Notes under the pieces: model-generated
Database searches by the model: none
The model's input: the letters and a program-made list of their open reading frames with translations, nothing else
Told to the model about the DNA's origin: nothing
Program-made: the position numbers and the translations under genes
Origin: a virus
Taxonomy: Duplodnaviria; Caudoviricetes
Direction: 5' to 3' (one strand)
Virus record (IMG/VR): IMGVR_UViG_3300023245_000021
Span: 1-51,643 of that record
DNA length: 51,643 nt
Part shown: positions 1-51,643 of the stretch, in pieces
How the letters are laid out: every line of letters begins with the position of its first letter
How positions within the stretch are numbered: position 1 is the stretch's first letter

Positions 1-67
1 TGATGTTGCTATGGGTTCCCCATACGACCATGCCACACCTTATTTAAAACCAGTGGGGGTGAAGTGA
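1..67 (+). CDS. Partial ORF (3' end only), ...DVAMGSPYDHATPYLKPVGVK
   Basis: Frame from nt 2 is open to TGA at 65-67 and ends in the junction motif; the 5' part lies outside the window. Confidence 0.6.
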   Translation, partial: DVAMGSPYDHATPYLKPVGVK

Positions 68-69
68 TG
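46..69 (+). repeat. Gene-junction element, full copy AAAACCAGTGGGGGTGAAGTGATG
   Basis: Identical to 799-822 and 51200-51223; encodes KPVGVK-stop, an SD and the next ATG. Confidence 0.95.
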
Positions 70-291
70 GACGAATTTAAAGAAAAGGTTACAAGTGGCT
101 CAGTCTACCTAGACCCTGCGGAGATATGCTTTTTTACACAGCCAGAGTATTCCGATTGGAAGTGTTACCTGTTTGGCGGGTCGGGCACGAGTCTGACTTG
201 GACTCCACATAAGGGAAAAGAGCCTAATTGGTTTTGGCGAAAGATGCAGTATTTGATACTCGGCAATCGCTGGGTAAAGGAGAAAGAATAA
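67..291 (+). CDS. Small hypothetical protein (PNWFWRKMQYLILGNRW end)
   Basis: ATG inside the junction motif, 7 nt after GGGGG SD; TAATG overlap with next gene. Confidence 0.8.
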   Translation: MDEFKEKVTSGSVYLDPAEICFFTQPEYSDWKCYLFGGSGTSLTWTPHKGKEPNWFWRKMQYLILGNRWVKEKE

Positions 292-479
292 TGGAAAATA
301 ACCTAATCATGCCTGCAATTCTTGTGTGTCTCGCCGCCTTTATAATAGGCATTGGTCTTGGAGGCCTCGTGAAAGGCGGCACGGCAGAAGAAAAATGGCA
401 GAAAAACACCGCACAAACAGAATGCGCTAGATTTCACCCCGCTACTGGGAAATTTGAATGGATAAAGGGGGTGAAGTGA
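291..479 (+). CDS. Small membrane-anchored hypothetical protein ending WIKGVK
   Basis: ATG 291 after AAGGAG SD; N-terminal hydrophobic stretch. Confidence 0.75.
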   Translation: MENNLIMPAILVCLAAFIIGIGLGGLVKGGTAEEKWQKNTAQTECARFHPATGKFEWIKGVK

Positions 480-481
480 TG
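467..481 (+). repeat. Gene-junction element, core copy GGGGGTGAAGTGATG
   Basis: Exact 15-nt core. Confidence 0.85.
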
Positions 482-673
482 AGTAAATTATATAGGTGCG
501 GATGGTGTGGACGGCCTACAGATAAAGAAGGTCGAGTGACTTCCATGTTTGAAGTTGGGCGCATATCGGATATTGATGAGGTTTGGAAAGACGCAGACCA
601 TGTGCGTGGTGATTGCTGTAGGGTGATAAGCAAGACGAAGAGGATTATTACAATCGACAGATTTCTGAGTTAG
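479..673 (+). CDS. Small Zn-finger-like protein (CGWCG...HxxxxCC)
   Basis: ATG in junction motif; Cys/His pattern. Confidence 0.7.
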   Translation: MSKLYRCGWCGRPTDKEGRVTSMFEVGRISDIDEVWKDADHVRGDCCRVISKTKRIITIDRFLS

Positions 674-688
674 AGGAGTGAAGTGATG
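674..688 (+). repeat. Gene-junction element, degenerate non-coding copy AGGAGTGAAGTGATG
   Basis: 13/15 match to core. Confidence 0.7.
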
Positions 689-820
689 AACAGAGAAGAG
701 AAAGAGTTGAGAGAGTCGATAGCAAGGTTTGAGCGGGAGAGAGACATCGCAGAAGATCGCTTGCTCAAGGCAAAGCACACCCTTAAATTTTATCTATTAA
801 AACCAGTGGGGGTGAAGTGA
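686..820 (+). CDS. 44-aa protein MNREEKEL...YLLKPVGVK (not in ORF track)
   Basis: Hand-translated; bounded by junction motifs at both ends. Confidence 0.75.
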   Translation: MNREEKELRESIARFERERDIAEDRLLKAKHTLKFYLLKPVGVK

Positions 821-822
821 TG
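799..822 (+). repeat. Gene-junction element, full copy
   Basis: AAAACCAGTGGGGGTGAAGTGATG, exact. Confidence 0.95.
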
Positions 823-1017
823 TATTTGCCAGAGATTAAATACCCGCTAAGACTGTGTGTTGAGATGATGCATTATTGCACGTGGTCAAACGAGAAAACG
901 GCAGAGATAAGACCTAGTGAATTGCTTGTCAACTTAGAAGTGTTTTTTAGTAAAGAGCTAATTGAAGAATCGCGAAAAATACTTTGCGGTGAAATAACAC
1001 CAGTGGGGGTGAAGTGA
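820..1017 (+). CDS. Small hypothetical protein ending ITPVGVK
   Basis: ORF between two junction motifs. Confidence 0.75.
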   Translation: MYLPEIKYPLRLCVEMMHYCTWSNEKTAEIRPSELLVNLEVFFSKELIEESRKILCGEITPVGVK

Positions 1018-1019
1018 TG
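996..1019 (+). repeat. Gene-junction element, 1 mismatch (AACACCAGT...)
   Basis: 23/24 match. Confidence 0.9.
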
Positions 1020-1283
1020 CAAACAACACACTATTGCGACGAGTACGGAGGGTTCCTACAGTACCCAACAAAAGAAGTTAAATCCAAGGAAGTTAATGTA
1101 TGGATTCATGAGAGCCTCTTGGCTGCTACGCACGATTATAGCTGTACCGCTTGTCGAGAGAGGAAGGCGGTGCTGGATATGCAGACTGGAATAATGCAAC
1201 CCTGTTGGCGCTGTCAAGAGGAAGGTTACAAAGTGCTGAAGGTTAGACGCAACTGGCTATTACGGTTAGTGGGGGTGAAGTGA
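1017..1283 (+). CDS. Small Zn-finger protein (CTAC...CWRC) ending RLVGVK
   Basis: Two CxxC motifs; bounded by junction motifs. Confidence 0.75.
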   Translation: MQTTHYCDEYGGFLQYPTKEVKSKEVNVWIHESLLAATHDYSCTACRERKAVLDMQTGIMQPCWRCQEEGYKVLKVRRNWLLRLVGVK

Positions 1284-1285
1284 TG
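1268..1285 (+). repeat. Gene-junction element AGTGGGGGTGAAGTGATG
   Basis: Exact 18-nt match. Confidence 0.9.
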
Positions 1286-1570
1286 GACATGAAAGAGATT
1301 AAAATAAAACCGAAAAATATTATATGGTCAGACGAAAAAGATTGTGACGAAAGTTGTAGGTATAACCATGTTCGAGGGGCAAGTGGACTCGGTGAATTTT
1401 TGATTACATGGAAGGGTTGGAAAAAGTTTCCTAGTTTTGACATAGAGGGGCCACTAGAGGATTTTAATAACTTTTATGGTTGTGGTTCTTTAAATGAAGC
1501 TAAGGAAAAAGCTAATAAAATGTATGAAGAAACAATACTGGGTTGCATTGAGTCAACAGAGTTAGGTTAG
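1283..1570 (+). CDS. Hypothetical protein (ITWKGWK motif)
   Basis: ORF starting in junction motif. Confidence 0.75.
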   Translation: MDMKEIKIKPKNIIWSDEKDCDESCRYNHVRGASGLGEFLITWKGWKKFPSFDIEGPLEDFNNFYGCGSLNEAKEKANKMYEETILGCIESTELG

Positions 1571-1571
1571 C

Positions 1572-1586
1572 GGAGGTGAAGTGATG
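1572..1586 (+). repeat. Gene-junction element, non-coding copy GGAGGTGAAGTGATG
   Basis: 14/15 match; shares upstream GGTTAG with the 1264-1285 copy. Confidence 0.8.
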
Positions 1587-1769
1587 AGTATGTACAACTG
1601 CGGAATATGTGGAGCTTGGAAGGACAATGATTACGAACCTGCTGAGTTTATAAAAGAGAACAGCAGTGACGAAGAGTACCCAGTGTGCGAAGATTGTTTC
1701 GCTGAACATGAAGAGAATAAGAATGACTATACCCACCACGACTATGAGTCTAGTAATGAGCAGAAGTAA
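1584..1769 (+). CDS. Small acidic Zn-finger protein (CGIC...CEDC)
   Basis: Two CxxC motifs; start in junction motif. Confidence 0.7.
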   Translation: MSMYNCGICGAWKDNDYEPAEFIKENSSDEEYPVCEDCFAEHEENKNDYTHHDYESSNEQK

Positions 1770-1920
1770 AGTATACACTACCTTAGCCTTCCTTATGGCA
1801 GCGTGTATGATCTATAAGGTATCCGCAGACCCTGAAGGCTATGGGTTGGATACCACCTTTTTAATCTGGGGAGTCTACATGGCCTCTGGTGTATTGTATT
1901 ATATTTGGAGTGAGACATGA
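1756..1920 (+). CDS. Small two-TM membrane protein
   Basis: Internal ATG of track ORF 1666-1920; two hydrophobic segments. Confidence 0.55.
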   Translation: MSRSKVYTTLAFLMAACMIYKVSADPEGYGLDTTFLIWGVYMASGVLYYIWSET

Positions 1921-2114
1921 GAGTAATTGATGATGATGATAAGACTATAGCTGTGTTTAGGAAGCACTTTGGCTTTGGGTTTAGTAGAGAACACTACTAT
2001 CCTATATTGGCAAAGCTTAGAGAGGAGTTAGCCGAAGATTCTTTCGACGAGATATTTGATGCCGTAGCTAGACACGAGACTAAACTAAACAAAGAACAGG
2101 AGAGTGATGTATGA
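1917..2114 (+). CDS. Hypothetical protein (MRVIDDD start)
   Basis: ATGA overlap and GGAG SD. Confidence 0.7.
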   Translation: MRVIDDDDKTIAVFRKHFGFGFSREHYYPILAKLREELAEDSFDEIFDAVARHETKLNKEQESDV

Positions 2115-2196
2115 TGGATACTATGGTTATCAAAAACCCGGCAGATGATAAGCCGAGTGATCAAGAAGATTTGTTTGAAGCCGTGGCTAACTGCTC

Positions 2197-2379
2197 ATGA
2201 GCTCTTCAACCCACGGAGGTAAAGGAGACAGGCAGCGGCCTAAAGATACAGAGAGGTTTAATACTAATTGGGATTTAATATTTAAAGGAGAAAAGAAAGA
2301 TGATAAAGAAGTTGGCTACACTGCTCGGCGAGAAGCTCCTGTCTTGGATACAACAAGAGACAATAATCCTAAAGAGTAG
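2197..2379 (+). CDS. Small phage protein, GKGxxxRP...FxxNWDxIF type
   Basis: Motif also present in 35857-36030; recognised from memory as common in aquatic phages. Confidence 0.6.
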   Translation: MSSSTHGGKGDRQRPKDTERFNTNWDLIFKGEKKDDKEVGYTARREAPVLDTTRDNNPKE

Positions 2380-2473
2380 GTTTGAATCGAGGTTCATAAA
2401 GACAGTGCGCTCAGTGGTTGTATTGGCTTGTGTGCTGACACTCATTAATGTTATAATGGTTTTAAAAGGATAG
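2300..2473 (+). CDS. 57-aa membrane protein (not in track)
   Basis: Hand-translated MIKKLATLLGEK...; AAGGAG SD; C-terminal TM segment. Confidence 0.55.
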   Translation: MIKKLATLLGEKLLSWIQQETIILKSRFESRFIKTVRSVVVLACVLTLINVIMVLKG

Positions 2474-2479
2474 AGCACT

Positions 2480-2593
2480 ATGAATATAATATTAGGAATG
2501 CTTGTAGGGGTGGCAGTAATTTTATGTATTAAAGTCCTGTATGAATCAGAGCTGATGATAGAGGAACTAAAGAAAGAAAGAGAAGAGGATTAA
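2480..2593 (+). CDS. 37-aa membrane peptide (not in track)
   Basis: AAAGGA SD; hydrophobic N-terminus, charged C-terminus. Confidence 0.55.
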   Translation: MNIILGMLVGVAVILCIKVLYESELMIEELKKEREED

Positions 2594-2597
2594 AGTT

Positions 2598-2900
2598 ATG
2601 ACTAGACGAATAGATAGTATGGATGGGGAGCAACTATACGCTTCTTGGATGAGGTACTCAGGCCCTCTAGCATTATGGCTACTCGAGATGACTGAGCCAG
2701 AACCAAGATGGCAAGACGACCTGAAGAAGGGCCCTATAATCTGTTGGGTTTGGGATAGAGAAAGAGTAAACCCTAAAAAGTATATGTATAATATAGATTC
2801 AATAAACCCTGAAACTGCTGACTACCGCGGAGGTATTCTTAGTTGGGAGTTTGCCGAGCCTGTAAGACCCCACGAAATCTACCAAGGAGGTAGCAGATGA
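2598..2900 (+). CDS. Hypothetical protein, paralog of 48911-49240
   Basis: Shared RRID..SWM.YSGPL..EP.PRW.DDLK.G...CWVW. Confidence 0.8.
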   Translation: MTRRIDSMDGEQLYASWMRYSGPLALWLLEMTEPEPRWQDDLKKGPIICWVWDRERVNPKKYMYNIDSINPETADYRGGILSWEFAEPVRPHEIYQGGSR

Positions 2901-3106
2901 ATATATTAATAAGCGCTGAACTACTACAAGAAATGATAGAGTATGTTGAGTCAGCCGAACAGGGCTACGACGCCGAGCATGGGCTAGTGCGGAAGATCCC
3001 GCAGGTTTCACCTGACGACATGATGCCTGATCTCTATGCCACCTTAAAGACTCTAGAAGCGCGGCAACACCCAAACAGAACGGAGGACAACCGCGGCAAT
3101 AAATAA
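2897..3106 (+). CDS. Hypothetical protein
   Basis: AAGGAGGT SD, ATGA overlap. Confidence 0.7.
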   Translation: MNILISAELLQEMIEYVESAEQGYDAEHGLVRKIPQVSPDDMMPDLYATLKTLEARQHPNRTEDNRGNK

Positions 3107-3114
3107 AAAAGAAC

Positions 3115-3143
3115 TTGACAGACTTAACAGACTATGCTATACT
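3115..3143 (+). promoter_or_regulatory. Sigma70-type promoter for replication genes
   Basis: TTGACA-17 bp-TATACT with extended TG and an A-tract upstream. Confidence 0.85.
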
Positions 3144-3184
3144 TCACCCTCAATTTTAAAACAACTTAAAAAGGAAATATCAAC

Positions 3185-3619
3185 ATGGCAATATTAGAAG
3201 GCTCAGCATACTGGGCATCAGTTTTAACACCCAACACCACTTTTGAACCGGCCTACTCGGTCAATCTGGTTGTAGACGAAGCGACTGCCGAGGACTTTAA
3301 GGCCCGAGGGTTTAATATTAAACAGATGGACGAAGGCCCTTCTATTCTTTTCAAGCGTAAAGTCGAAGGCAAAGGCGGAACAATTCGCAGCGCGCCTAAG
3401 CTCATGGATAAGTTCAAGAACCCTCTGGACGCACGGGTCGGCAATGGCTCAGCCGTTAAGGTTCAGTACAGCGAGTGGGAAACCACCAATAAGTTTGGTT
3501 CTTTTCGGGGCTTAGACTTTCAGGCTATGCAGGTCTTAAACTTAGTAGAAGTAGGGACTGAAGATGGCGCAGAGTTTGATGCCGAAGACGCAGACGACGA
3601 TATGGACGGAGAACTATAG
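3185..3619 (+). CDS. Single-stranded DNA-binding protein (T7 gp2.5-like)
   Basis: VGNGSxVKV motif, acidic C-tail, position before primase-helicase. Confidence 0.8.
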   Translation: MAILEGSAYWASVLTPNTTFEPAYSVNLVVDEATAEDFKARGFNIKQMDEGPSILFKRKVEGKGGTIRSAPKLMDKFKNPLDARVGNGSAVKVQYSEWETTNKFGSFRGLDFQAMQVLNLVEVGTEDGAEFDAEDADDDMDGEL

Positions 3620-3840
3620 TGGGTATCATTACCGTAGACGGGACTCAGTACGAGTCCGACAACCTCTCGGCACTGGGTCAAGGCATCTTAGCTCGCCTCA
3701 TCGAAGCAGACAAGCGAACAAGCGAGGCTTCGCAGACTGCCGCGATTTTTCAGGCCGCTGTGCTTCAGTTGATCATAGAGCTTAAAGATAACCATCTCTT
3801 TGACGAGGCGCTTGTCACAGAGGAAGTAACCGAGGAGTAA
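3619..3840 (+). CDS. Hypothetical protein
   Basis: GTG start overlapping the SSB stop. Confidence 0.7.
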   Translation: MGIITVDGTQYESDNLSALGQGILARLIEADKRTSEASQTAAIFQAAVLQLIIELKDNHLFDEALVTEEVTEE

Positions 3841-3845
3841 GCCCA

Positions 3846-5516
3846 TTGCCTTTTGTTAAACACAAACTACCGTGTCCTGAGTGTGGCGGAAGCGACCCAG
3901 TATCTTTAAACGATAATGGGTCAGGTTGGTGCTTCAGCGGGTGTGGCTATCTGCCAAACTACGGAGCCAAAAAGGAAGAGACTTTAACCGACACTGTTAT
4001 AGACTTTGAAATGCACCAAAGGAACAGTAAGATGAATGACGACGGAACTGCCGCCTTTAATGAATTGACTGACCGCAAGATAAGCTTAGCTACTGCTAAG
4101 AAGTACGGCGTCAAATCAACAATGGTTGGCGGGAAGATAGACAAGCACTACTATCCTTATTATAACGGGCATGAGTTAGCCGCTACTAAAATCCGTAAAC
4201 AGAACAAGGATTTTCCGTGGACAGGGAGTCCAAAGGAAGCGGGGTTGTTTGGCGAGAACCTGTTTAAAGCCGGAGGTAAATTCATAACCCTAGTAGAAGG
4301 AGAGTGTGACGCGATGGCCGCTTATGAACTTATGGGGAGTAAGTGGCCTGTTGTTTCTTTAAAGAACGGGGCGGATGGAGGCGTCCGAGATGTAAAAGAG
4401 AACTTAGAATACCTTGAGTCTTTTGAGTCCATAGTAATTAATCTGGACAACGACAAGCCCGGAAAGGCTGCGGCTCTATTGATCGCCAAGCTCTTAACGC
4501 CGGGCAAAGCCAAGATCATGACACTGCCCGTGGACTACAAAGATGCCAACGATATGTTGCGCCAAGGTAGACACGCCGCATACGTCAGTGCTTTTTGGGA
4601 TGCTAAACTCTATACGCCCTCTGGTGTATTGAATATGTCCGAGCAGCTAGAGGCTTATCAACAGCTAAGAGCCGAACGAAAACCGGCCATCCCTTATCCT
4701 TGGTCTGGTTTAAACCGCAAGCTAGAGGGCCTGAGATCCGGCGAGCTTGTTACGCTTACTGGCGGCACGGGCTTAGGAAAGTCCTCTGTTACTCGCGAGG
4801 TTGAGCATTGGTTGATTGAACACACTGACGACAATGTGGGTGTCCTAGCCCTTGAAGAGAGTTGGGCCCGTACTGCGGAGGGTATCATGGCAGTAGAGGC
4901 AAACGCCAAGCTGCATCTTGATAGCGTCAAGGCTACGTTCGCCGACGAACAACTAGACGACTACTATAAGAAAGTCTTTATGGGCGAGAACGAAGGAAGA
5001 GTGTGGGTACATGCTCATCATGGTGTCAATAACCTAGAAGAGATCTTCAGCAAGCTACGATATATGATCATAGGATTAGACTGTAAATGGGTTGTAGTTG
5101 ATCACCTTCACATGCTTGTGTTATCTACTTTAGAGCACGACGAGCGCAAAGCCATTGATGGCATCATGCACCGCTTACGGACTATGGTAGAAGAGACAGG
5201 CTGTGGTATGATACTGGTGTCACACTTGAGGCGAGTCGATGGAAACAGAGGCCACGAAAACGGAATAGAGACAGGGCTATCACACTTGAGAGGCTCTCAA
5301 TCTATTGCTCAGTTGAGTGATTGTGTTATTGCCTTGGAGCGAAACCAACAATCCGAAGATCACATAGAGGCATCAACCACTAAAGTTAGGGTGCTTAAGT
5401 CTAGGTACACTGGCGATGTTGGCGTAGCTTGTCATCTCTTGTATGATCATACGACAGGACGACTGCGAGAGCTAGATGACTTTGATGACTCGCAGTTTGA
5501 CGGAGAGGTTATGTGA
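3846..5516 (+). CDS. T7 gp4-like DNA primase-helicase
   Basis: Zn ribbon CPECGGSD; TOPRIM EGECDA and DNDxxG; Walker A GGTGLGKS; VVVDH; LRGSQSIAQLSD. Confidence 0.97.
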   Translation: MPFVKHKLPCPECGGSDPVSLNDNGSGWCFSGCGYLPNYGAKKEETLTDTVIDFEMHQRNSKMNDDGTAAFNELTDRKISLATAKKYGVKSTMVGGKIDKHYYPYYNGHELAATKIRKQNKDFPWTGSPKEAGLFGENLFKAGGKFITLVEGECDAMAAYELMGSKWPVVSLKNGADGGVRDVKENLEYLESFESIVINLDNDKPGKAAALLIAKLLTPGKAKIMTLPVDYKDANDMLRQGRHAAYVSAFWDAKLYTPSGVLNMSEQLEAYQQLRAERKPAIPYPWSGLNRKLEGLRSGELVTLTGGTGLGKSSVTREVEHWLIEHTDDNVGVLALEESWARTAEGIMAVEANAKLHLDSVKATFADEQLDDYYKKVFMGENEGRVWVHAHHGVNNLEEIFSKLRYMIIGLDCKWVVVDHLHMLVLSTLEHDERKAIDGIMHRLRTMVEETGCGMILVSHLRRVDGNRGHENGIETGLSHLRGSQSIAQLSDCVIALERNQQSEDHIEASTTKVRVLKSRYTGDVGVACHLLYDHTTGRLRELDDFDDSQFDGEVM

Positions 5517-6178
5517 GTAAGGCGTGTTCTAGATGTGGGGAGATTAAAGCGCTTGAAGAGTTTTATAAACGCAGGCGCACTAAGGAGGGGCGCAGGTCTG
5601 AGTGTAAAGAATGTTCAAAGGCTTCTGAAAAAGAATATTACCTAGCGAACAGAGAGGCTGTTAATTCGAGGACTCAGGCGTGGGCTAGAGCCAATCCAAT
5701 GAGTGCTAGGGCTCGGAGCAAGGCGTGGTACGAAGCTAACAAAGAAAGGAAGGCGGCGAAGGGCAGGGCTTGGCGCGAAGCAAACAAAGAAAGAGATCAG
5801 AATTATAATAAGGCTTGGTACGAAGAGAACAAAGAAAGATCTGCGGCACTGAGCAGGGCGTGGCGCGAAGCTAATCCCGAAAGGGTGAAGGCTAATAATA
5901 AGGCTTGGCATCAGACACACTTAGACAAGAGAAACGCGAGTGGGGCTAAGTACAGAGCCGCAAGACTACAGCGCACAGTGGCATGGTCTAACAACGAGGT
6001 AATAGAAGAGGTGTACGCCGAAGCTCGAAGGCTGTCAGAAACTACAGGCATCCAGTTTCATGTCGATCATGTTATTCCGCTTCAAGGTAAACTGGTCAGC
6101 GGCCTTCATGTTGAAACAAATTTACAGATACTTATGGCACACGATAATAGTGCTAAGTCCAACAACTTTAAAATCTAA
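5513..6178 (+). CDS. Free-standing HNH endonuclease with Zn finger and AWxEANxER repeats
   Basis: CSRC/CKEC; HVDHVIPL...GLHVETNLQ...N..KSN. Confidence 0.9.
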   Translation: MSKACSRCGEIKALEEFYKRRRTKEGRRSECKECSKASEKEYYLANREAVNSRTQAWARANPMSARARSKAWYEANKERKAAKGRAWREANKERDQNYNKAWYEENKERSAALSRAWREANPERVKANNKAWHQTHLDKRNASGAKYRAARLQRTVAWSNNEVIEEVYAEARRLSETTGIQFHVDHVIPLQGKLVSGLHVETNLQILMAHDNSAKSNNFKI

Positions 6179-6190
6179 AGGAAGAAGAGA

Positions 6191-7963
6191 ATGGTTAACC
6201 TAGTATTCGATATAGAAGCTAACGGTTTAGACCCTACTAAGATCCACTGTATTGTGGCCCAAGACGCCTTCACCAAGGCGGTATTTAAGTTTGATAACAC
6301 TCAACTAGAAGAGGGCTATAAGTTCCTTAGCTCTGCAACTAAGCTCATAGGCCATAATATTATAGGCTATGACATACCCGTCATTAAAAGGCTAGCAGGC
6401 GTGGATCTATTTGATAAGAAGATTGTAGATACTCTAGTTTTATCTCGGCTCTTTAACCCCACCCGCGAGGGGAACCACGGCTTAGAGGGATGGGGCTATC
6501 GCTTAGGCTTTAAGAAAGGTGACTTTGGAAAAGCCGAGGGTGCTTGGGAAGTCTACACGCCCGAGATGTTGAAGTATTGTAAGAATGATGTGTTGTTGAA
6601 TACTAAAGTCTATGAGGCTCTTAAGATTGAGAGCCGCGGGTTTACGCCGCAGTCTGTTCAAATAGAACACGCAGTTGCTAGGATTATAGATCAACAGCGC
6701 AACAACGGCTTTGTTCTTGATGTCGAGAAAGTCATGGGCTTGATGGCTATGTTCGAAACCCTCCTGCATGATTTAGTTGAGGAGGTTCATGAGGAGTTTA
6801 AGCCTGTTATAACTACGCAGATACTTAGCCCTAAGTTTACTACCAACGGGTCATTAGCTAAGACAGCAACAGACCAACACGGAGCCGGGACAAGACTGAG
6901 TGACGAAGAGTACGAGAAACTTTTAGTAGATGAGGGCTCTAAGCCTATAGCTCGACACACCGAGACGCCCTTTAACCTTGGCTCAAGGAAACAAATAGGC
7001 GAATACTTAATCCGCTTCGGTTGGAAGCCGCAGAAGTTTACGCCCACAGGTCAGCCGATGGTAGACGAGGGGATACTTAAACGAGTTAAGAGGATTCCGC
7101 AGGCCGCCTTAATCGCCCGCTACCTTATGGTTCAGAAGCGCTTGGCACAAACTAAGAGTTGGATCAAAGAACTGAACGAAGAGACAGGCAGAGTGCATGG
7201 TTATGTTAATCCTAATGGCGCAGTGACAAGCCGCATGACTCATTCGCATCCGAACATGGCTCAAATTCCTAGTAGCACTTCGCCTTATGGCCCCGAGTGT
7301 CGTGCTTGTTGGACAGTCCCAAAAGGCTACAAGCTTGTAGGCATTGATGCCTCTGGCTTAGAACTACGAATGCTAGCACACTACTTAAACGACGAGGGCT
7401 ATACTAATGAAATCCTTAACGGAGACATACATACCACTAATCAAAACCTTGCAGGGCTTGAGTCAAGAGATCAGGCTAAGACTTTCATCTATGCCCTCCT
7501 GTACGGAGCCGGAGATGCTAAGCTTGGATCAGTGGCTAAAAGAGGCAGAGCAGGTGGTAAAGGACTTAGACAACGCTTCTTTGATAACCTCCCATCATTT
7601 AAAGCTCTTACAGATCGCGTACAAAGAGAAGCAGCAAGCGGATTCATTAAAGGCTTAGATGGCCGCAAGCTCACGGTTCGCTCGGCTCACGCTGCCCTCA
7701 ACACTCTTCTTCAAGGAGCAGGCGCAATAGTCATGAAGAAGGCGCTGATAATCCTTGATGATCTTATAACCTCTAAAGGACTTGATGCTAAGTTCGTAGC
7801 CAATGTCCACGACGAATGGCAGATAGAGTGCCACAAAGATCACGCAGAAGAAGTAGGAAAGCTAGGTGTACGAGCCATCAAAGAAGCAGGCTGTATGCTT
7901 GCGCTTAATTGTCCATTAGACGGCGACTATAAAGTCGGGGAGAACTGGAGTGAAACACATTAA
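6191..7963 (+). CDS. polA: Family A DNA polymerase with 3'-5' exonuclease (T7 gp5-like)
   Basis: FDIE exo I; DASGLELR motif A; RDQAKTFIYALLYGAG motif B (Tyr, as in T7); VHDE motif C. Confidence 0.97.
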   Translation: MVNLVFDIEANGLDPTKIHCIVAQDAFTKAVFKFDNTQLEEGYKFLSSATKLIGHNIIGYDIPVIKRLAGVDLFDKKIVDTLVLSRLFNPTREGNHGLEGWGYRLGFKKGDFGKAEGAWEVYTPEMLKYCKNDVLLNTKVYEALKIESRGFTPQSVQIEHAVARIIDQQRNNGFVLDVEKVMGLMAMFETLLHDLVEEVHEEFKPVITTQILSPKFTTNGSLAKTATDQHGAGTRLSDEEYEKLLVDEGSKPIARHTETPFNLGSRKQIGEYLIRFGWKPQKFTPTGQPMVDEGILKRVKRIPQAALIARYLMVQKRLAQTKSWIKELNEETGRVHGYVNPNGAVTSRMTHSHPNMAQIPSSTSPYGPECRACWTVPKGYKLVGIDASGLELRMLAHYLNDEGYTNEILNGDIHTTNQNLAGLESRDQAKTFIYALLYGAGDAKLGSVAKRGRAGGKGLRQRFFDNLPSFKALTDRVQREAASGFIKGLDGRKLTVRSAHAALNTLLQGAGAIVMKKALIILDDLITSKGLDAKFVANVHDEWQIECHKDHAEEVGKLGVRAIKEAGCMLALNCPLDGDYKVGENWSETH

Positions 7964-8453: not shown

Positions 8454-8767
8454 TGTCTAGAGTAATTGATGATGATCGTCTAGCCGAAGAGGTACTACTA
8501 GAGTGGCGCTGTGAGGGTAGCCCTCTTGAGTATTTACTTCGGGATCTAAGAAAAGAAACCCCTAACTGGTGGAATGATATAGACATGAAAAACCCAGCAA
8601 CTTGGGTTGATGCGTGGGCTTGGAATTTGGGTGAGCGAGAAAGAGTCCTGATAACGCACCGCCAACATGAGCCTAACCTTGCTGGAATCCGTCTTTACTA
8701 TTCGTCCACAAACCGAACTTATGTTAATGCTACACCCTTTATTAAACCGGAGAAAAATAATGCCTAA
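8453..8767 (+). CDS. Hypothetical protein, distant paralog of 2598/48911 family
   Basis: RVIDDD start, W..D..AWAWN, YVNATP end. Confidence 0.65.
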   Translation: MSRVIDDDRLAEEVLLEWRCEGSPLEYLLRDLRKETPNWWNDIDMKNPATWVDAWAWNLGERERVLITHRQHEPNLAGIRLYYSSTNRTYVNATPFIKPEKNNA

Positions 8768-9620
8768 AGACCTAAACACCTTAGTACCTGACATCTATAG
8801 CCACTTGGAGAAACTTTCTAGCGGCACACCTTTGCCCTTGACAGACGCCGACATCGACCAAGCCGCAGAGGGTATGAAGGCTGCGCTTAAATCTTGGGCA
8901 AACCCCGAAGAGCGAGACACCAACTTCACGGTTCGTATGTCTAATGTTGGCAAGCCTGCGCGTCAGTTGTGGCACCAGAAGCGAGATCCAGAAAGACGAG
9001 GCGGTATTGATGGCCCGACGCAGATCAAGTTCTTATACGGCCACTTGCTTGAAGAGATTGTTCTTATGCTTGTACGCATGGCAGGCCACGAAGTTACCGA
9101 CGAACAAAAAGAAGTCAAGGTAAAAGGCATAGTAGGCCACATGGACTGTAAGATTAATGGCGAGGTGGTTGATGTTAAGACAGCCTCAAGGTTCGCTTTT
9201 AATAAATTCAGAGAAGGGCGCTTAGCCCAAGACGATCCGTTTGGATACTTGGGTCAACTGGCGGGCTACGAAGCAGCAGAGGGTACAGACAAAGGCGGCT
9301 TCTTAGTATTAAACAAAGAGAGTGGCGAGCTGTGCATGTATGTGCCAGATGACCTAGACAAGCCCAACATTAAATCGTCTATAAGCCGCTTGTTGCCTGC
9401 ATTAGAGCTTGACACGCCGCCTGCTTTATGCTATACTCCCATACCTGATGGCAAGAAAGGCAACATGAAACTCCCCAAAGGCTGTAGTTGGTGTAAGTAT
9501 AAGTACAAATGCTATGCAGACTCTAATGACGGAGCAGGCTTGCGGACTTTTAAATATTCTAATGGCAATACTTACTTAACTCAAGTAGTTGCCGAACCCA
9601 AAGTAGAGGAGCTACTATGA
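8760..9620 (+). CDS. PD-(D/E)XK (Cas4/RecB-like) exonuclease
   Basis: GHMD...VDVKTAS; YLGQLAGY; CSWCKYKYKC; ATG 8760 preferred as start. Confidence 0.85.
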   Translation: MPKDLNTLVPDIYSHLEKLSSGTPLPLTDADIDQAAEGMKAALKSWANPEERDTNFTVRMSNVGKPARQLWHQKRDPERRGGIDGPTQIKFLYGHLLEEIVLMLVRMAGHEVTDEQKEVKVKGIVGHMDCKINGEVVDVKTASRFAFNKFREGRLAQDDPFGYLGQLAGYEAAEGTDKGGFLVLNKESGELCMYVPDDLDKPNIKSSISRLLPALELDTPPALCYTPIPDGKKGNMKLPKGCSWCKYKYKCYADSNDGAGLRTFKYSNGNTYLTQVVAEPKVEELL

Positions 9621-28385: not shown

Positions 28386-28580
28386 TTATTTAGCGTTTAA
28401 GGGCACAGTAGTGACTGATCTAAGCACCACAATACATACTGCAATACCTATTCCGATGAGTGCTTGTGAGCCTTGACTAACAGGCAATAAACCAGTGTAC
28501 CCTTGAGCCATGCTTAAAACAGTCAACGCAATGCTAAATTGTATCGTCCTAGACTTGAGGCTCTGTAGTATTAAGTCCAT
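28386..28580 (-). CDS. Two-TM membrane protein, holin-like
   Basis: LKSRTI...VVLRSVTTVP; hydrophobic. Confidence 0.65.
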   Translation of the reverse strand: MDLILQSLKSRTIQFSIALTVLSMAQGYTGLLPVSQGSQALIGIGIAVCIVVLRSVTTVPLNAK

Positions 28581-28816
28581 TATGATATGTACTCATTGCC
28601 AGAGCTAATGGCGGCACTAACCGCAGTCATGTCTTCATCGCCCCAATCGTCTTTAGCAACCATAAGCTCTAGGTGCTGAACATTACGCTCAACTGTTCCT
28701 TGGCTATCTTCATCAGCTTCTGCGGCGATAGTGGCTGTGATAAGTACTACACTATCACCCATTGCTGAGTAGTCTTGTGCTAGTTGTTCTGCTTTACGAT
28801 CTTCTACTTGTGACAT
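28580..28816 (-). CDS. Small acidic protein downstream of tail fibre
   Basis: RNVxHLELMVAK.DW motif; position suggests a fibre accessory protein. Confidence 0.7.
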   Translation of the reverse strand: MSQVEDRKAEQLAQDYSAMGDSVVLITATIAAEADEDSQGTVERNVQHLELMVAKDDWGDEDMTAVSAAISSGNEYIS

Positions 28817-28817
28817 A

Positions 28818-43423: not shown

Positions 43424-43452
43424 ATTATACTACTTGATTTGGGTTTTGTCAA
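43424..43452 (-). promoter_or_regulatory. Consensus sigma70 promoter for late operon
   Basis: TTGACA-17-TATAAT on - strand, ending 7 nt before terS ATG. Confidence 0.85.
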
Positions 43453-43501
43453 GTCTTTTTTTAGTTATTTTAGTTTATTTGCTAAATAGTTACGAAATAG
43501 C

Positions 43502-43530
43502 TTGACAAAACCTGAATCAAGTAGTATAAT
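43502..43530 (+). promoter_or_regulatory. Consensus sigma70 promoter, rightward
   Basis: TTGACA-17-TATAAT; inverted copy of the leftward promoter. Confidence 0.85.
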
Positions 43531-44474: not shown

Positions 44475-44891
44475 ATGAAAAATAAAACATACGATATATA
44501 CATATCAAGCGATAGACCTGCGTTAAACGCTCTTAAGACTAAACAACGACGCATAGCATTAGTAGACGCTTTACAAGATCTAGGCCACCACCCACAAGTA
44601 ATAGAGGGCCAATATAATGGCGTGAGTGAACAGTCTTATAGACTAAAGGGCGTTTCTTTAGGCTCAACCGCTAATCAGATTATAAAGATCGCCGCGGCAT
44701 TGGACCAAGAGTCTATTTTGTTGGTTGAGACTTTAAAGCATACTAAACTAGCTAGTCTATATTATCTTAGCGGTGCGTATGCGAAGACTTTAGAAGCTAT
44801 CGGTTATTTTAAAGAGGAGCGCGAAAAACCTAGTGATGGACGCGATTATTCGTTTAATATAAAGAATAAAACTTATAGTTATGTAGTTTAA
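44475..44891 (+). CDS. Putative S-adenosylmethionine lyase (T3 SAMase-like)
   Basis: ISSDR, GQY..EQS, IA...DQESILLV, ASLYY and GYFKE line up by eye with T3 SAMase motifs; very early position. Confidence 0.7.
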   Translation: MKNKTYDIYISSDRPALNALKTKQRRIALVDALQDLGHHPQVIEGQYNGVSEQSYRLKGVSLGSTANQIIKIAAALDQESILLVETLKHTKLASLYYLSGAYAKTLEAIGYFKEEREKPSDGRDYSFNIKNKTYSYVV

Positions 44892-46609: not shown

Positions 46610-46777
46610 ATGAACTATGCTAAAAAGCTATTAACACTTACAGAACTACATAAAGAGAGACGTCAAGCATTAATTGTGACTACAATAGGTTGGTCAGTCT
46701 TGATAATAGGTTGGTCACTTTTGTCAGTAGTCTGGTTCACTTTTGTGGTGGTTATGTTTGGTGAGGGAGTGAAGTGA
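46610..46777 (+). CDS. 55-aa membrane protein ending GEGVK (not in track)
   Basis: AAGGAG SD; TM stretch with IGWS x2. Confidence 0.65.
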   Translation: MNYAKKLLTLTELHKERRQALIVTTIGWSVLIIGWSLLSVVWFTFVVVMFGEGVK

Positions 46778-46779
46778 TG
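46765..46779 (+). repeat. Gene-junction element GGGAGTGAAGTGATG
   Basis: 14/15 match to core; encodes GVK-stop. Confidence 0.7.
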
Positions 46780-46995
46780 GGATTCATGTATCAGGTCTTA
46801 AGGGCGCATATCAGCGCGTCACTTACTGTTAAAGAGTTGAGCGTGGCGCGCGGCGGCGTAGAGTATTGCCTGAATAAGAGCTATATAACGGCACAGGACT
46901 ACATAAACTTAACAACCCTTTGCAATAGTCACAAAGATCTGCTAGACTTAGTGGCTACTATTCAAGAGTCTTATTTAAAGGAGGAAGAGTTATGA
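46777..46995 (+). CDS. Hypothetical protein ending YLKEEEL
   Basis: Starts in junction motif. Confidence 0.65.
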   Translation: MGFMYQVLRAHISASLTVKELSVARGGVEYCLNKSYITAQDYINLTTLCNSHKDLLDLVATIQESYLKEEEL

Positions 46996-50436: not shown

Positions 50437-50733
50437 ATGAATAAAGAACAAGAGCTACAAAAAGCACTACAAGCCGCACAGGATGCACTATATTCAACGG
50501 TTCAAGGGATAATCAACCAAGTCTGTCTTAATGTTGAGTCTGATTTTGTACCTGATTGGAATGTCCATTCTTACAAGTACATTGTTATCTACCACAAAGG
50601 GAAGTGGGTTTCCGATTCGATTGACTACCCTGAAGGACTTAGCTATCTGTCCACAAAAGCCAAAGCCCAACAAGTCTGCGACATCTTGAATGACATTGGT
50701 TTAAAACCAGTGGGGGTGAAGTGGTGGAGCTAA
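50437..50733 (+). CDS. Hypothetical protein ending IGLKPVGVKWWS
   Basis: Reads through a junction motif whose TGA is TGG. Confidence 0.75.
   Translation: MNKEQELQKALQAAQDALYSTVQGIINQVCLNVESDFVPDWNVHSYKYIVIYHKGKWVSDSIDYPEGLSYLSTKAKAQQVCDILNDIGLKPVGVKWWS
50694..50723 (+). repeat. Gene-junction element, 30 bp identical to 51191-51220, followed by GTG instead of ATG
   Basis: CATTGGTTTAAAACCAGTGGGGGTGAAGTG. Confidence 0.95.
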
Positions 50734-50742
50734 GGTGGCTAA

Positions 50743-50774
50743 TGATACTTGGCAATCGTTAGGTAAAGGAGAAA
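50743..50774 (+). pseudogene. Relic of the 3' end of gene 67-291
   Basis: 29/32 nt identical to 254-285; W codon TGG changed to TAG. Confidence 0.7.
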
Positions 50775-50778
50775 TAAC

Positions 50779-51018
50779 ATGTACCTAGTTCAAATAGGTG
50801 AAGATATTTTTGTAGATCTAACCGAAATCCGAGGGGTGTTTTCAACTACCTCCGAAGGAGTCAATATCCTCCACCTTATGTTTAAAGGATGCGAGAACGA
50901 AGCTTCTATGATGGTCAGCTACAAGTACCGTATGAGCGTTATAAACAGTATTATCAGCAATAACCAAAATCCAAGCCAGAGCCTTGAACGGGCGATTAAA
51001 TCCATGGAGAAAGAGTGA
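50779..51018 (+). CDS. Hypothetical protein
   Basis: AAGGAG SD supplied by the relic. Confidence 0.7.
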   Translation: MYLVQIGEDIFVDLTEIRGVFSTTSEGVNILHLMFKGCENEASMMVSYKYRMSVINSIISNNQNPSQSLERAIKSMEKE

Positions 51019-51221
51019 TGAGTGAATTAAAAGATGAAATAATGGTTAAAATTAAAGACGAAATGGTCGAGTCTTACCTCAAAGGCTACGATCATGGGAT
51101 AAAGGATACAGTTGAATGTCTAAAAGAGTGCAAAGAAAAGATTGGCGGGGGAGCCATATTTAGCCTAGACGATATTATTGCATTTGTCAGCATTGGTTTA
51201 AAACCAGTGGGGGTGAAGTGA
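51018..51221 (+). CDS. Hypothetical protein ending IGLKPVGVK
   Basis: GGAG SD, TGATG overlap. Confidence 0.75.
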   Translation: MSELKDEIMVKIKDEMVESYLKGYDHGIKDTVECLKECKEKIGGGAIFSLDDIIAFVSIGLKPVGVK

Positions 51222-51223
51222 TG
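51191..51223 (+). repeat. Gene-junction element, full copy
   Basis: Exact match. Confidence 0.95.
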
Positions 51224-51493
51224 GAAGAATACGAAAGATGCAATCAGACGGGTAAGAAAGATGCAATTAGACGGGTACTTATACCAAGCCTTCTTTTGCT
51301 CTCTGCCTGTAATGTTGATCAGCAAAATGATGCCAGTGAATCTAAGTTTATAGGCACTACTTACACACTTGATCACATGCATGAGGTCCATGAGTTCACG
51401 CCAAATGAAGCACCGACCATGCTGTGCGTTGTATTAACGTCTCGCATCCCCTTAAAGGCCGCATCTGGCATTACCTGTTTTAAGAAAATATAA
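51221..51493 (+). CDS. Putative lipoprotein
   Basis: Basic residues, hydrophobic stretch and lipobox LSAC. Confidence 0.6.
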   Translation: MEEYERCNQTGKKDAIRRVLIPSLLLLSACNVDQQNDASESKFIGTTYTLDHMHEVHEFTPNEAPTMLCVVLTSRIPLKAASGITCFKKI

Positions 51494-51499
51494 CCGACT

Positions 51500-51514
51500 G
51501 GAGGTGAAGTTATG
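51500..51514 (+). repeat. Gene-junction element, degenerate GGAGGTGAAGTTATG
   Basis: 13/15 match to core. Confidence 0.65.
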
Positions 51515-51643
51515 AGTAAAGAAGTGAAAAATGCAATGGATGTTATTAAAAAAGCTATGGTCGAAGACGGTATGGAGGTTGGAAGCCTAGCACACGGGTG
51601 GCATTGCAACATAGCTATGGCTTGTTACGACTCTATGAATCTT
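51512..51643 (+). CDS. Partial ORF MSKEVKNAM...HGWHCNIAMACYDS
   Basis: Open to the end of the window. Confidence 0.7.
   Translation, partial: MSKEVKNAMDVIKKAMVEDGMEVGSLAHGWHCNIAMACYDSMNL

What the first reader, a model, noticed from the sequence alone, without database searches (positions are those of the whole stretch)
46..1586. Candidate phage gene-cassette array: a 24-bp junction element encoding KPVGVK-stop, RBS and next start links unrelated small genes
Seen: the core GGGGGTGAAGTGATG or a close variant occurs at 55, 467, 674, 808, 1005, 1271, 1572, 46765, 50712, 51209 and 51500. AAAACCAGTGGGGGTGAAGTG is exact at 46, 799, 50703 and 51200, with one mismatch at 996. Every copy sits at a gene boundary in the same orientation, and the flanking genes are unrelated 44-98 aa ORFs. 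Identity extends 9-18 bp upstream of the SD and includes synonymous positions, which is more than an RBS needs. Known analogues: T4-type PeSL repeats, lambdoid boundary sequences and mycobacteriophage start-associated sequences are proposed to assist module shuffling. Inference: each gene is a portable, translationally coupled cassette that can be gained, lost or reordered by recombination at this site, giving an integron-like array with no integrase gene in the window.
Basis: partly seen in the sequence, partly recalled or inferred. Interest (0 to 1): 0.9.

Follow-up and report, generated by a model that had tools for sequence, protein, structure and literature searches.

The report
Shared junction motif shuffles phage mini-genes
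A salt-lake phage joins about a dozen unrelated small early genes with one short stop/ribosome-site/start sequence, and otherwise unrelated phages from the same kind of habitat carry the same genes in other orders, with the breaks falling on that sequence.

Summary
GGGGGTGAAGTGATG (up to 2 mismatches) occurs 11 times, all on the + strand and all at gene starts, against 0.05 expected. The 21-mer occurs 5 times against 0.00 expected.

The window is a whole viral record, an HMO-2011-type podovirus. Its two ends lie inside the array.

The motif is an 8-nt extended Shine-Dalgarno sequence, a 4-nt spacer and a TGATG stop/start overlap. It forms no hairpin and holds no promoter or terminator.

Scans with the 18-mer found 29 further loci that share cassettes with the window. 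They fall into at least five mutually dissimilar backbones.

The same cassettes have different neighbours in different loci. At motif-bearing boundaries, 14 of 22 recurrent upstream flanks have more than one downstream partner. At other boundaries the figure is 7 of 57 (p = 1.2e-5). A 553-nt block that is 99.5% identical to an unrelated 33.8-kb phage begins and ends exactly on motif copies.

No tyrosine integrase or serine-resolvase domain and no attC-like structure was found.

Best reading: a standard translational-coupling junction that serves as a short-homology crossover site. It is a PeSL-like linker acting at the translation level, a new variant of a known kind.

This scan has noted similar junction arrays on other DNA. 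Those notes are unchecked.

The parts
55..69 (+). Junction motif copy, exact 15-mer. The extended 24-nt form spans 46-69. The upstream frame ends ..PYLKPVGVK at TGA 65-67, and the ATG at 67 starts gene 67-291.
467..481 (+). Junction motif copy, exact. It is the left edge of the 553-nt block that is 99.46% identical to G001.
674..688 (+). Junction motif copy with 2 mismatches (AGGAG form). The upstream ORF stops at the TAG directly before it.
808..822 (+). Junction motif copy, exact. The extended form spans 799-822.
1005..1019 (+). Junction motif copy, exact. The extended form spans 996-1019 with 1 mismatch. It is the right edge of the 99.46% block shared with G001.
1271..1285 (+). Junction motif copy, exact. 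Contigs of other runs join it to position 1920.
1572..1586 (+). Junction motif copy with 1 mismatch (GGAGG form). The upstream ORF stops at a TAG just before it.
46765..46779 (+). Isolated junction motif copy with 1 mismatch, between genes 46610-46777 and 46777-46995.
50712..50726 (+). Decayed junction copy in which TGATG has become TGGTG. The extended form spans 50703-50726. It is followed at 50743-50774 by a relic of the 3' end of a second copy of gene 67-291.
51209..51223 (+). Junction motif copy, exact. The extended form spans 51200-51223.
51500..51514 (+). Junction motif copy with 2 mismatches (GGAGGTGAAGTTATG). The upstream ORF stops at a TAA 6 nt before it.
50437..51643 (+). Left part of the cassette run: genes 50437-50733, 50779-51018, 51018-51221 and 51221-51493, and gene 51512-51643, which is cut by the end of the record.
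2..1769 (+). Right part of the cassette run: a 3' gene fragment at 2-67, then genes 67-291, 291-479, 479-673, 686-820, 820-1017, 1017-1283, 1283-1570 and 1584-1769. Of the 14 complete genes of the two runs that were scanned, none matched Pfam and 1 matched a PHROG of unknown function.
43502..43530 (+). Consensus sigma-70-type promoter (12 of 12), the likely start of the rightward early transcript that runs through the array. The next strong + strand promoter-like site is at 3115-3143 (11 of 12).
   Evidence: a pattern match only
3185..3619 (+). Gp2.5-like ssDNA-binding/annealing protein, a candidate phage-encoded helper of short-homology recombination. Its role here is inferred.
   Evidence: phrog_112, E 1.6e-7
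8667..9620 (+). Cas4-domain (PD-(D/E)XK) exonuclease, a candidate partner of the annealing protein. Its role here is inferred.
   Evidence: phrog_1990, E 5.1e-50

Best explanation
The motif is a standard translational-coupling junction. GGGGGTGA (or GGAGGTGA) is an 8-nt extended Shine-Dalgarno sequence. Four bases later comes ATG, which overlaps the TGA stop of the upstream gene as TGATG. A ribosome that finishes one small early gene can therefore restart on the next. The genes lie in a long rightward early transcript with no predicted internal promoters or terminators.

Several unrelated phages that occur in the same kind of salt-lake sample carry the same 15-24 bases at their early-gene junctions. 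The junction therefore acts as a short-homology crossover point. An exchange, copy-choice event or unequal crossover inside it swaps, deletes, duplicates or inserts whole genes. Both reading frames and the coupling stay intact, so nearly every product is viable.

The enzymes are most likely general ones: the phage's own annealing protein and exonuclease, or host recombination. A dedicated site-specific recombinase is less likely.

Shown: the motif, its anatomy, its clustering in arrays, and the fact that synteny breaks between phages fall on it. Inferred: coupling, the enzymology, and that recombination rather than selection alone places the breaks.
For: Anatomy.
- 11 copies, all on the + strand and all at gene starts, against 0.05 expected.
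- The stop/start overlap is seen.
- Other genes of the window use ordinary AAGGAG or AGGAG sites with variable spacers, so the motif is not the phage's general RBS.
- No consensus promoter or terminator lies inside the run.
- No conserved fold: z-scores scatter around 0 in 29 copies.
- No inverted repeats of 14 nt or more at the junctions.

Spread.
- The 18-mer AGTGGGGGTGAAGTGATG hits 12 IMG/VR stretches and 48 metagenome stretches.
- In 596 billion bases of bacterial and archaeal genomes it hits only 11 scattered single sites.
- Of the 62 sequences compared, 30 (the window composite plus 29 loci, one of them a duplicate) form one similarity network.
- These fall into at least five backbone groups that share no more than about 1.4 kb with one another.
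- Of G001's whole 33.8 kb, only the cassettes and a tail-spike part match the window.

Breaks on the motif.
- The block at window 467-1019 is 99.46% identical to G001, and identity starts and stops inside motif copies.
- 14 of 32 HSP-end clusters in the window's 10.6-kb array region lie within 12 nt of a copy. These zones cover 4.0% of the region (binomial p 7e-12).
- 14 of 22 recurrent upstream-flank classes at motif boundaries have more than one downstream partner, against 7 of 57 at non-motif boundaries (p 1.2e-5). Seen from the downstream flank the figures are 12 of 22 against 11 of 62 (p 0.0018).
- One upstream gene (..ILNDIxLKPVGVK) is followed by 5 different intact genes and 2 decayed junctions.

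Not an assembly artefact.
- 25 of 51 distinct motif junction combinations recur in two or more assemblies. The count is 19 if IMG/VR labels are ignored.
- Logan contigs of four further runs show joints 65->467, 1019->54 and 1285->1920. Of the 22 loose ends listed, 13 lie within 12 nt of a copy.

Constraint at the nucleic-acid level.
- AGT before the 15-mer is kept in 23, 18 and 20 of 29 upstream classes. The A is a third-codon position.

Traces of duplication and decay.
- G004 carries the same cassette twice.
- The window holds a relic of a second copy of gene 67-291 after the mutated junction.

Candidate recombination genes: a gp2.5-like protein and a Cas4-like exonuclease.
Against: - The shared sequence is only 15-24 nt, rarely 30. 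As I recall, this is at or below the length at which RecA or Red-type systems work efficiently. No crossover was observed directly.
- Breaks are not confined to the motif. Seven of 57 recurrent non-motif boundaries also have several partners.
- 18 of 32 HSP-end clusters in the window lie off the motif. One of them is a recurrent break inside a gene at 50490-50493, with 22 ends and 15 partners. Some of the 18 reflect sequence divergence, and three lie where the partner, not the window, has the motif.
- Nearly all gene boundaries in the densest part of the arrays carry the motif, so 'break at the motif' and 'break at a gene boundary' are only partly separable.
- The copies used for the logo were picked by a limit of 2 mismatches, so conservation inside the 15-mer is partly by selection of the data.
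- All comparison sequences are metagenome contigs. Many probably come from related samples of one habitat type, so events are not fully independent.
- The strict conservation of the spacer is not explained by coupling alone.
Confidence: 0.62

Rival explanations
1. The motif is first of all a regulatory RNA site shared by one class of early genes. It could be the target of a phage or host factor, such as a translational repressor or an endoribonuclease that acts at ribosome-binding sites, as has been proposed for the start-associated sequences of cluster K mycobacteriophages. On this reading the mosaic junctions arise from illegitimate recombination, and selection keeps only the products that break at gene borders.
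For: Positions that pairing with 16S rRNA would not need (the spacer AAGTG and the preceding AGT) are as well kept as the SD. The motif differs from the RBS of the other genes of the window. It is restricted to early small genes. The SAS precedent is in PMC3203893, of which I read passages. Breaks also occur at some boundaries without the motif.
Against: No shared candidate factor was found. The backbones share almost nothing but cassettes. Illegitimate recombination with selection does not predict that both parents carry the same 15-24 nt at every exchanged border. It also does not predict that motif borders are about five times more often promiscuous than other gene borders in the same arrays. 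The two readings do not exclude each other: a regulatory function could be the reason the crossover site stays conserved.
Confidence: 0.17
2. A dedicated, still unrecognised site-specific system (a recombinase, nuclease or homing-type enzyme) recognises the motif and moves cassettes. This would be a true phage counterpart of an integron.
For: The core is strictly conserved and always in one orientation. Single-gene units are exchanged with base precision across unrelated phages. Most neighbouring proteins are of unknown function, so an enzyme could be hidden among them.
Against: No tyrosine recombinase domain was found in the window or in G001, G003, G004 or G005. No serine resolvase domain was found in the window. 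The motif is asymmetric, without inverted repeats or a fold, unlike attC and most recombinase sites. The backbones share no gene other than the cassettes themselves. Motif-free borders also shuffle.
Confidence: 0.1
3. The shared element matters as protein. The C-terminal peptide (K)PVGVK would be a functional tag, for example for turnover or localisation, and the DNA identity would be a by-product.
For: Seven of 11 window copies, and 18 of 29 upstream classes in the network, end in ..GVK.
Against: In 3 of 11 window copies and 11 of 29 classes the upstream ORF does not end at the motif's TGA (most stop before the motif; three classes carry variant stop codons), so the peptide is not always made. 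Identity continues past the stop into the next start codon. A synonymous third-codon position is conserved in 23 of 29 classes.
Confidence: 0.05
4. The apparent shuffling is an artefact: metagenome assemblers joined different phages at a shared repeat.
For: All comparison sequences are assembled contigs. The window record itself breaks inside the array.
Against: The repeat is 15-30 nt, which from recall is shorter than the final word sizes of usual assemblers. 25 of 51 junction combinations recur in two or more assemblies. Independent Logan contigs reproduce both the window's order and the alternative joints. One 7855-nt contig covers window 231-3100 with 0 differences.
Confidence: 0.03

Closest known systems
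PeSLs (promoter-early stem-loops) of T4-type phages (Arbiol et al. 2010, PMC2839356: abstract and sections 13 and 16 read; Comeau et al. 2014, PMC4122927: abstract read)
   Same: Both are repeated regulatory sequences that lie between small ORFan genes in variable early regions. In both, insertions, deletions and replacements between related phages fall on the repeats. In both, the moved gene keeps its expression signals. Recombination between direct copies would release circles.
   Different: PeSLs span about 100 bp and consist of a sigma-70 promoter plus a terminator stem-loop, so each cassette is its own transcription unit. The element here is 15-24 nt with no promoter, no stem-loop and no terminator. 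It acts inside an operon at the level of translation, overlaps both coding regions, and is shared across unrelated backbones (an HMO-2011-type podovirus, a 33.8-kb phage and large contigs), not only within one phage family. The mini-circles shown for PeSLs are untested here.
Start-associated sequences (SAS) of cluster K mycobacteriophages (Pope et al. 2011, PMC3203893: passages read)
   Same: Both are short asymmetric repeats that contain the SD core plus conserved positions that rRNA pairing does not explain. Both lie a few bases before start codons, mostly ATG, in one orientation, in non-structural genes, in front of genes of different families, and are nearly absent from host genomes.
   Different: The sequence is different (SAS is GGGATAGGAGCCC). 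There is no extended inverted-repeat part (ESAS). In the passages I read, SAS were proposed to act in translation initiation and were not tied to mosaic breakpoints. Here the link to breakpoints is the main result, and the stop/start overlap is part of the motif.
Short conserved boundary (linker) sequences proposed for lambdoid phage mosaicism, as summarised in PMC3029335 (passages read). The original papers were not seen.
   Same: The idea is the same: homologous recombination at short conserved sequences between modules creates mosaics.
   Different: According to PMC3029335, such sequences cannot be found at most mosaic boundaries in the phages studied. Here one defined sequence marks most junctions of an array and recurs across several phage backbones. 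The units are single small genes, not functional modules.
Integrons (features recalled, not taken from a call)
   Same: Both are arrays of promoterless single-gene cassettes in one orientation, read from an upstream promoter, with cassettes gained, lost and reordered at a repeated site.
   Different: No IntI-type tyrosine recombinase. No attC-like imperfect inverted repeats or folded site. No attI was identified. The site lies inside coding sequence and carries the RBS and the start codon.

Membership tests
Integron | IntI tyrosine recombinase gene next to the array | tested here: not met
   PF00589 found no match in the window or in G001, G003, G004 or G005. The control genomes matched 14 of 14. 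PF00239 found no match in the window.
Integron | attC sites with imperfect inverted repeats that fold as single strands | tested here: not met
   No inverted repeats of 14 nt or more at the junctions. No consistent fold in 29 copies, with z-scores around 0.
Integron | Promoterless cassettes in one orientation, expressed from an upstream promoter | tested here: inconclusive
   All copies and genes are on the + strand. No site of 10 or more matches out of 12 lies inside the run on the + strand, and there is a 12-of-12 promoter at 43502. These are pattern scans only, and there are no transcript data.
PeSL regulatory cassettes | The element contains a sigma-70-type early promoter | tested here: not met
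   No promoter-like site overlaps any motif copy on the + strand.
PeSL regulatory cassettes | The element contains a stem-loop terminator or attenuator | tested here: not met
PeSL regulatory cassettes | Indels and replacements between phages fall on the repeats, next to ORFan genes | tested here: met
   for the breaks. Cassettes without known families.
PeSL regulatory cassettes | Mini-circles formed by recombination between neighbouring copies | not testable with these tools
   Only assembled contigs of the runs were available. Raw reads or outward-facing PCR are needed.
Start-associated sequences (cluster K mycobacteriophages) | Short asymmetric repeat with an SD core, a few bases before start codons, in one orientation, in non-structural genes | tested here: met
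Start-associated sequences (cluster K mycobacteriophages) | Consensus GGGATAGGAGCCC and, in about half the sites, the upstream 17-bp inverted repeats (ESAS) | tested here: not met
   The sequence here is different. No inverted repeats. The SAS definition is from PMC3203893.
Translational-coupling junction (stop/start overlap with an upstream SD) | The upstream stop overlaps the downstream start, with an SD at a working distance inside the upstream gene | tested here: met
   TGATG is present in 9 of 11 window copies, with GGGGGTGA or GGAGGTGA 4 nt before the ATG. Function was not measured.

The most novel reading that the evidence does not exclude
The junction is an evolved universal adapter, not just a well-used ribosome site. 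On this reading it is a self-propagating 18-24-nt connector that turns any small gene into a plug-in unit. It would be kept identical across unrelated phage families (small podoviruses, an HMO-2011-type phage and contigs whose CheckV completeness figures imply genomes of several hundred kb) because it makes genes exchangeable within one community. Cassettes would move as motif-bearing circles or by copy-choice during co-infection. That would be a community-wide, recombinase-free cassette pool in lytic phages, and a positive case for the old linker model of phage mosaicism.
Probability: 0.25. Interest if true: 0.85.

Novelty: new variant of a known kind. Interest (0 to 1): 0.66.

Why it matters
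How phage genomes become mosaics is an old open question. One view is homologous exchange at short conserved linkers. The other is random illegitimate joining followed by selection. PMC3029335 notes that linkers cannot be found at most mosaic borders.

Here one defined sequence of 15-24 nt marks most borders of an early-gene array. It recurs in at least five unrelated backbones from one kind of habitat. It carries the crossover points with base precision. This gives a concrete sequence with which the linker model can be tested at the bench, by comparing the motif with a scrambled motif. It also gives a simple search key for finding the exchangeable accessory genes of uncultured phages. These are probably host-takeover or anti-defence genes, since a SAM lyase gene lies upstream in the same early region.

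It also shows that a translation signal, and not only promoter-terminator cassettes as in T4-type phages, can serve as the connector.

Tried and rejected
- GenBank phages. Megablast of window 1-6000 and blastn of window 1-3100 gave no match. Only a protein search placed the phage: TerL is 65% identical to Pelagibacter phage HTVC115P.
I used the 18- and 20-mers instead.
- The search for related loci with the single protein 50437-50733 found only 2 loci. I did not build an alignment query.
- Host. The 18-mer scan of 596 billion bases of reference genomes gave 11 scattered single hits in unrelated taxa, about the 17 I would estimate by chance for an 18-mer. No host or prophage array was found, and the host remains unknown.
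- Two small groups with the same 18-mer lie outside the cassette network: the ..HIENHVSPLCKVGVK group, which includes provirus records G007 and G008, and the ..AEQHCEVGVK group. I did not follow them beyond listing ORFs. They may be chance or convergent junctions.
- Function of the cassettes. Of the 14 array cassettes scanned, 0 matched Pfam and 1 matched a PHROG of unknown function. Six neighbouring early genes went through the same searches, and the only hit was the SAM lyase. I attempted no structure prediction.
- Conserved RNA structure at the junction: rejected.
- Tandem duplication of one ancestral gene: rejected, because the cassette bodies are unrelated.
- Expression. No RNA holder was listed among the 24 runs, so nothing can be said about transcription.
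- Parts of window 1-3100 with little or no cover in some runs are not used as evidence.
- Excised circles and within-population joints could not be tested, because all four runs laid were Logan contigs. The joints seen most simply belong to other phages of the community, not to rearranged copies of this phage.
- A -1 slip on the G run would put the upstream frame in register with the downstream ATG. This is read off the sequence, was not tested, and is kept only as a side idea.
- Literature. The motif string is in 0 papers. Two term searches for a translational-junction linker in phages returned 0 papers. Supplementary files of the PeSL and SAS papers were closed and may hold further motif lists.
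- One search failed because it had too many words. I repeated it with fewer words.


Full report
WHAT THE WINDOW IS

The window is a whole IMG/VR virus record of 51,643 bp. It is classed as linear, with a CheckV completeness of 100%. It carries a T7-like replication set on the + strand:
- primase/helicase at 3846-5516
- DNA polymerase at 6191-7963
- a gp2.5-like ssDNA-binding protein at 3185-3619
- a Cas4-domain exonuclease at 8667-9620
- a ribonucleotide reductase with an HNH insert at 12110-14740

The structural genes lie on the - strand at 16016-42814. The large terminase is 65% identical to that of Pelagibacter phage HTVC115P, and the next-best hits are HMO-2011-type phages. No GenBank phage matches at the DNA level. 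Small + strand genes run from about 43.5 kb to the end of the record and continue from base 1 to about 3.1 kb, so the array in question straddles the two ends of the record.

THE OBSERVATION

GGGGGTGAAGTGATG with up to 2 mismatches occurs 11 times at the stated places. All copies are on the + strand, against 0.05 expected. The 21-mer occurs 4 times exactly and once with 1 mismatch, against 0.00 expected. Every copy ends in a start codon.

In 7 of 11 copies the upstream ORF ends ..GVK at the TGA inside the motif. In one copy (50712) TGATG has become TGGTG and the protein reads on. In three copies the upstream ORF stops at TAG or TAA within the 6 nt before the motif. The flanking genes are 44-98 aa. 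Apart from the shared C-terminal peptide they show no similarity to each other (91 pairs tested).

ANATOMY

The 3' end of 16S rRNA is recalled here, not computed. Read against it, GGGGGTGA or GGAGGTGA is an 8-nt extended Shine-Dalgarno sequence. ATG follows after 4 nt and shares its A with the upstream TGA.

The other roughly 60 genes of the window use ordinary AAGGAG, AGGAG or GGAG sites with variable spacers. The motif is therefore a special class of initiation region and not the phage's general one.

Pattern scans find a 12-of-12 promoter at 43502 and an 11-of-12 promoter at 3115. Nothing comparable on the + strand, and no terminator, lies inside the run. The motif has no inverted repeat and no consistent predicted fold in 29 copies.

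RELATIVES

An exact scan with a 20-mer found three IMG/VR contigs. One of them is G001, a complete 33.8-kb record with terminal repeats. It has 8 copies on one strand within 1.8 kb.

The 18-mer AGTGGGGGTGAAGTGATG found 12 IMG/VR stretches and 48 metagenome stretches. In 596 billion bases of reference bacterial and archaeal genomes it found only 11 scattered single sites. I estimate about 17 by chance for an 18-mer.

I compared 62 sequences. Thirty of them (the window composite plus 29 loci, one a duplicate of G004) form one blastn network. By summed similarity they fall into at least five backbone groups that share no more than about 1.4 kb with one another:
- the window
- G001, G003 and L152
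- G004 and G005
- G002, L175, L188 and L180
- L166 and L192
- G006 on its own

G001 has a portal, a scaffold protein and an ejection protein of other PHROG families than the window. Over its whole length it shares with the window only the cassettes and a 1,865-bp tail-spike segment at 99.4% identity. That segment suggests a common host and recent exchange.

SAME CASSETTES, DIFFERENT NEIGHBOURS

The junction table shows combinatorial reuse.
- The gene ending ..ILNDIxLKPVGVK (window 50437-50733) is followed by five different intact genes in different contigs, and by decayed junctions in two.
- The gene ending ..CGEITPVGVK is followed by four different genes.
- The gene ending ..PYLKPVGVK is followed by three different intact genes and, in three further contigs, by a decayed junction.
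- The cassette starting MDE(L/F)KEKV is preceded by at least five different genes.

The block at window 467-1019 (three genes) is 99.46% identical to G001. Identity begins at the first base of the copy at 467 and ends at the ATG of the copy at 1005-1019, and the sequences beyond are unrelated.

G004 and G005 are 99.7% identical over 3.8 kb downstream of one copy and differ upstream of it.

QUANTIFICATION AND CONTROLS

(a) In the window's 10.6-kb array region, 135 HSP ends collapse into 32 clusters. Fourteen lie within 12 nt of a copy, although those zones are only 4.0% of the region (binomial p 7e-12). Three further clusters lie where the partner, not the window, has the motif. Others reflect divergence inside genes. 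One of these is a recurrent break at 50490-50493.

(b) I made rough gene calls in 29 loci, giving 310 boundaries, of which 90 carry the motif. Among upstream-flank classes seen at least twice, 14 of 22 at motif boundaries have more than one downstream partner. At other boundaries the figure is 7 of 57 (Fisher p 1.2e-5). From the downstream side the figures are 12 of 22 against 11 of 62 (p 0.0018). The non-motif exceptions also lie at gene starts and share purine-rich SD-spacer strings. Examples are the 3' end of gene 67-291 and the end of gene 50779-51018.

(c) Against assembly artefact, 25 of 51 distinct motif junction combinations are seen in two or more assemblies.

(d) Twenty-four coded runs labelled as salt-lake metagenomes hold the window's first 3.1 kb or a part of it, 13 of them at least half of its sampled words. 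Logan contigs of four of them, laid on it, show joints 65->467, 1019->54, 1285->1920, 468->1920, 319->467 and 67->229. Of the 22 loose ends listed, 13 lie within 12 nt of a copy, 6 at 277-296 and 3 at 1937-1943. Thirteen more loose ends were not shown. One 7855-nt contig reproduces window 231-3100 without a difference.

HOW FAR CONSERVATION REACHES

I took one copy per upstream gene class (29 classes). The three bases before the 15-mer were not part of the search criterion in that step, yet they are A, G and T in 23, 18 and 20 of the 29. The A is the third position of the codon before Val. Further upstream the signal fades. The AAAACC extension belongs to a subset of classes.

Conservation inside the 15-mer is partly by ascertainment, because copies were picked with a limit of 2 mismatches.

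Decay is seen where the downstream gene is lost. One case is the 50712 copy, which is followed by a relic of a second copy of gene 67-291. The other is a GTAATA variant in G001.

INTERPRETATION

The simplest account is a standardised translational-coupling junction that also serves as a short-homology crossover site among co-infecting phages. Exchange within it keeps both ORF ends and the restart signal, so the products are viable. Recombination between direct copies deletes or duplicates cassettes. G004 has one cassette twice, and the window keeps a relic of a second copy.

The window encodes an annealing-type protein and an exonuclease that could help. Their role is an inference.

No tyrosine or serine recombinase domain was found, and there is no attC-like structure. 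'Integron-like' therefore describes the outcome and not the mechanism.

The closest published system is the PeSL of T4-type phages (PMC2839356 sections 13 and 16; PMC4122927 abstract). It differs in being about 100 bp of promoter plus terminator.

The motif's form is closest to the start-associated sequences of cluster K mycobacteriophages (PMC3203893 passages). In the passages I read, those were not linked to mosaic breakpoints.

PMC3029335 states the standing problem: conserved boundary sequences are not found at most mosaic borders. Here they are.

WHAT IS NOT SETTLED

- It is unclear why the spacer and the AGT are so strictly kept. The options are a direct function at the RNA level, frequent homogenisation by exchange, or selection for exchangeability.
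- It is unclear whether 15-24 nt suffice for the enzymes available.
- It is unclear whether circles occur.
- The host is unknown.
- The function of the cassettes is unknown. Of 14 scanned, 0 matched Pfam and 1 matched a PHROG of unknown function. A SAM lyase gene at 44475-44891 in the same early region (PF23780, 45.7 bits against a cut-off of 28) fits an anti-defence or host-takeover setting.

PRIOR NOTES OF THIS SCAN

Similar junction-motif arrays were reported by follow-up agents on other DNA (e1-5763033, e1-5944662, e1-5688899, e1-3441065). They are unchecked AI notes and I did not test them. I found nothing in print on this motif or on a translational-junction linker in phages. Those searches cover only the held library.

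VERDICT

The finding is a new variant of a known kind (linker-mediated modular shuffling), with interest 0.66.

Noticed in passing
window 28408-30272 (- strand gene 28818-33470): A 1,865-bp segment covering the 3' part of the tail-spike-like gene and about 400 bp downstream of it is 99.4% identical to the otherwise unrelated 33.8-kb phage G001. This points to a shared host and a recent exchange of the receptor-binding part.
   Followed up: partly
window 51501-51643 and 1-68: The two ends of the record lie inside the cassette array. In G001 the matching stretches are 361 nt apart and hold one more motif junction. The record therefore probably lacks a few hundred bases of a circularly permuted or circular map, broken at sequence shared with more abundant phages.
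   Followed up: partly
window 270-293 and 51002-51020: Two other junction strings, ..GGGTAAAGGAGAAAGAATAATG and ..CCATGGAGAAAGAGTGATG, also have several different downstream partners in other contigs. They may be secondary or decayed junction types.
   Followed up: partly
window 50490-50493: A recurrent break inside gene 50437-50733 (22 HSP ends, 15 partner loci). The first 18 or so codons (MNKEQELQKAL..) are shared by otherwise different proteins, so some exchanges occur just inside the N-terminus.
   Followed up: no
window 12110-14740: The ribonucleotide reductase gene carries an HNH endonuclease domain at residues 405-491, between two RNR matches. This looks like an intein or another insertion.
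   Followed up: no
window 44475-44891: An S-adenosylmethionine lyase family protein (PF23780, 45.7 bits, cut-off 28) lies among the first early genes. It is a likely anti-restriction function.
   Followed up: partly
window 43424-43530: Two perfect TTGACA-17-TATAAT promoter matches face outward from each other (- strand 43452-43424, + strand 43502-43530), at the divergence point of the early and packaging genes.
   Followed up: no
all canonical motif copies, e.g. window 53-69: The downstream ATG is in the -1 frame of the upstream ORF, and the frame through GGG GGT GAA GTG ATG is open. A -1 slip on the G run would therefore fuse neighbouring cassettes. This is read off the sequence only.
   Followed up: no
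L047, L049, L140, L142, L168, L179 (including provirus records G007, G008); L139, L141, L151: The same 18-mer ends two other gene families (..HIENHVSPLCKVGVK and ..AEQHCEVGVK) outside the cassette network. The first is followed by several different genes. This could be chance, convergence or a wider use of the junction.
   Followed up: partly
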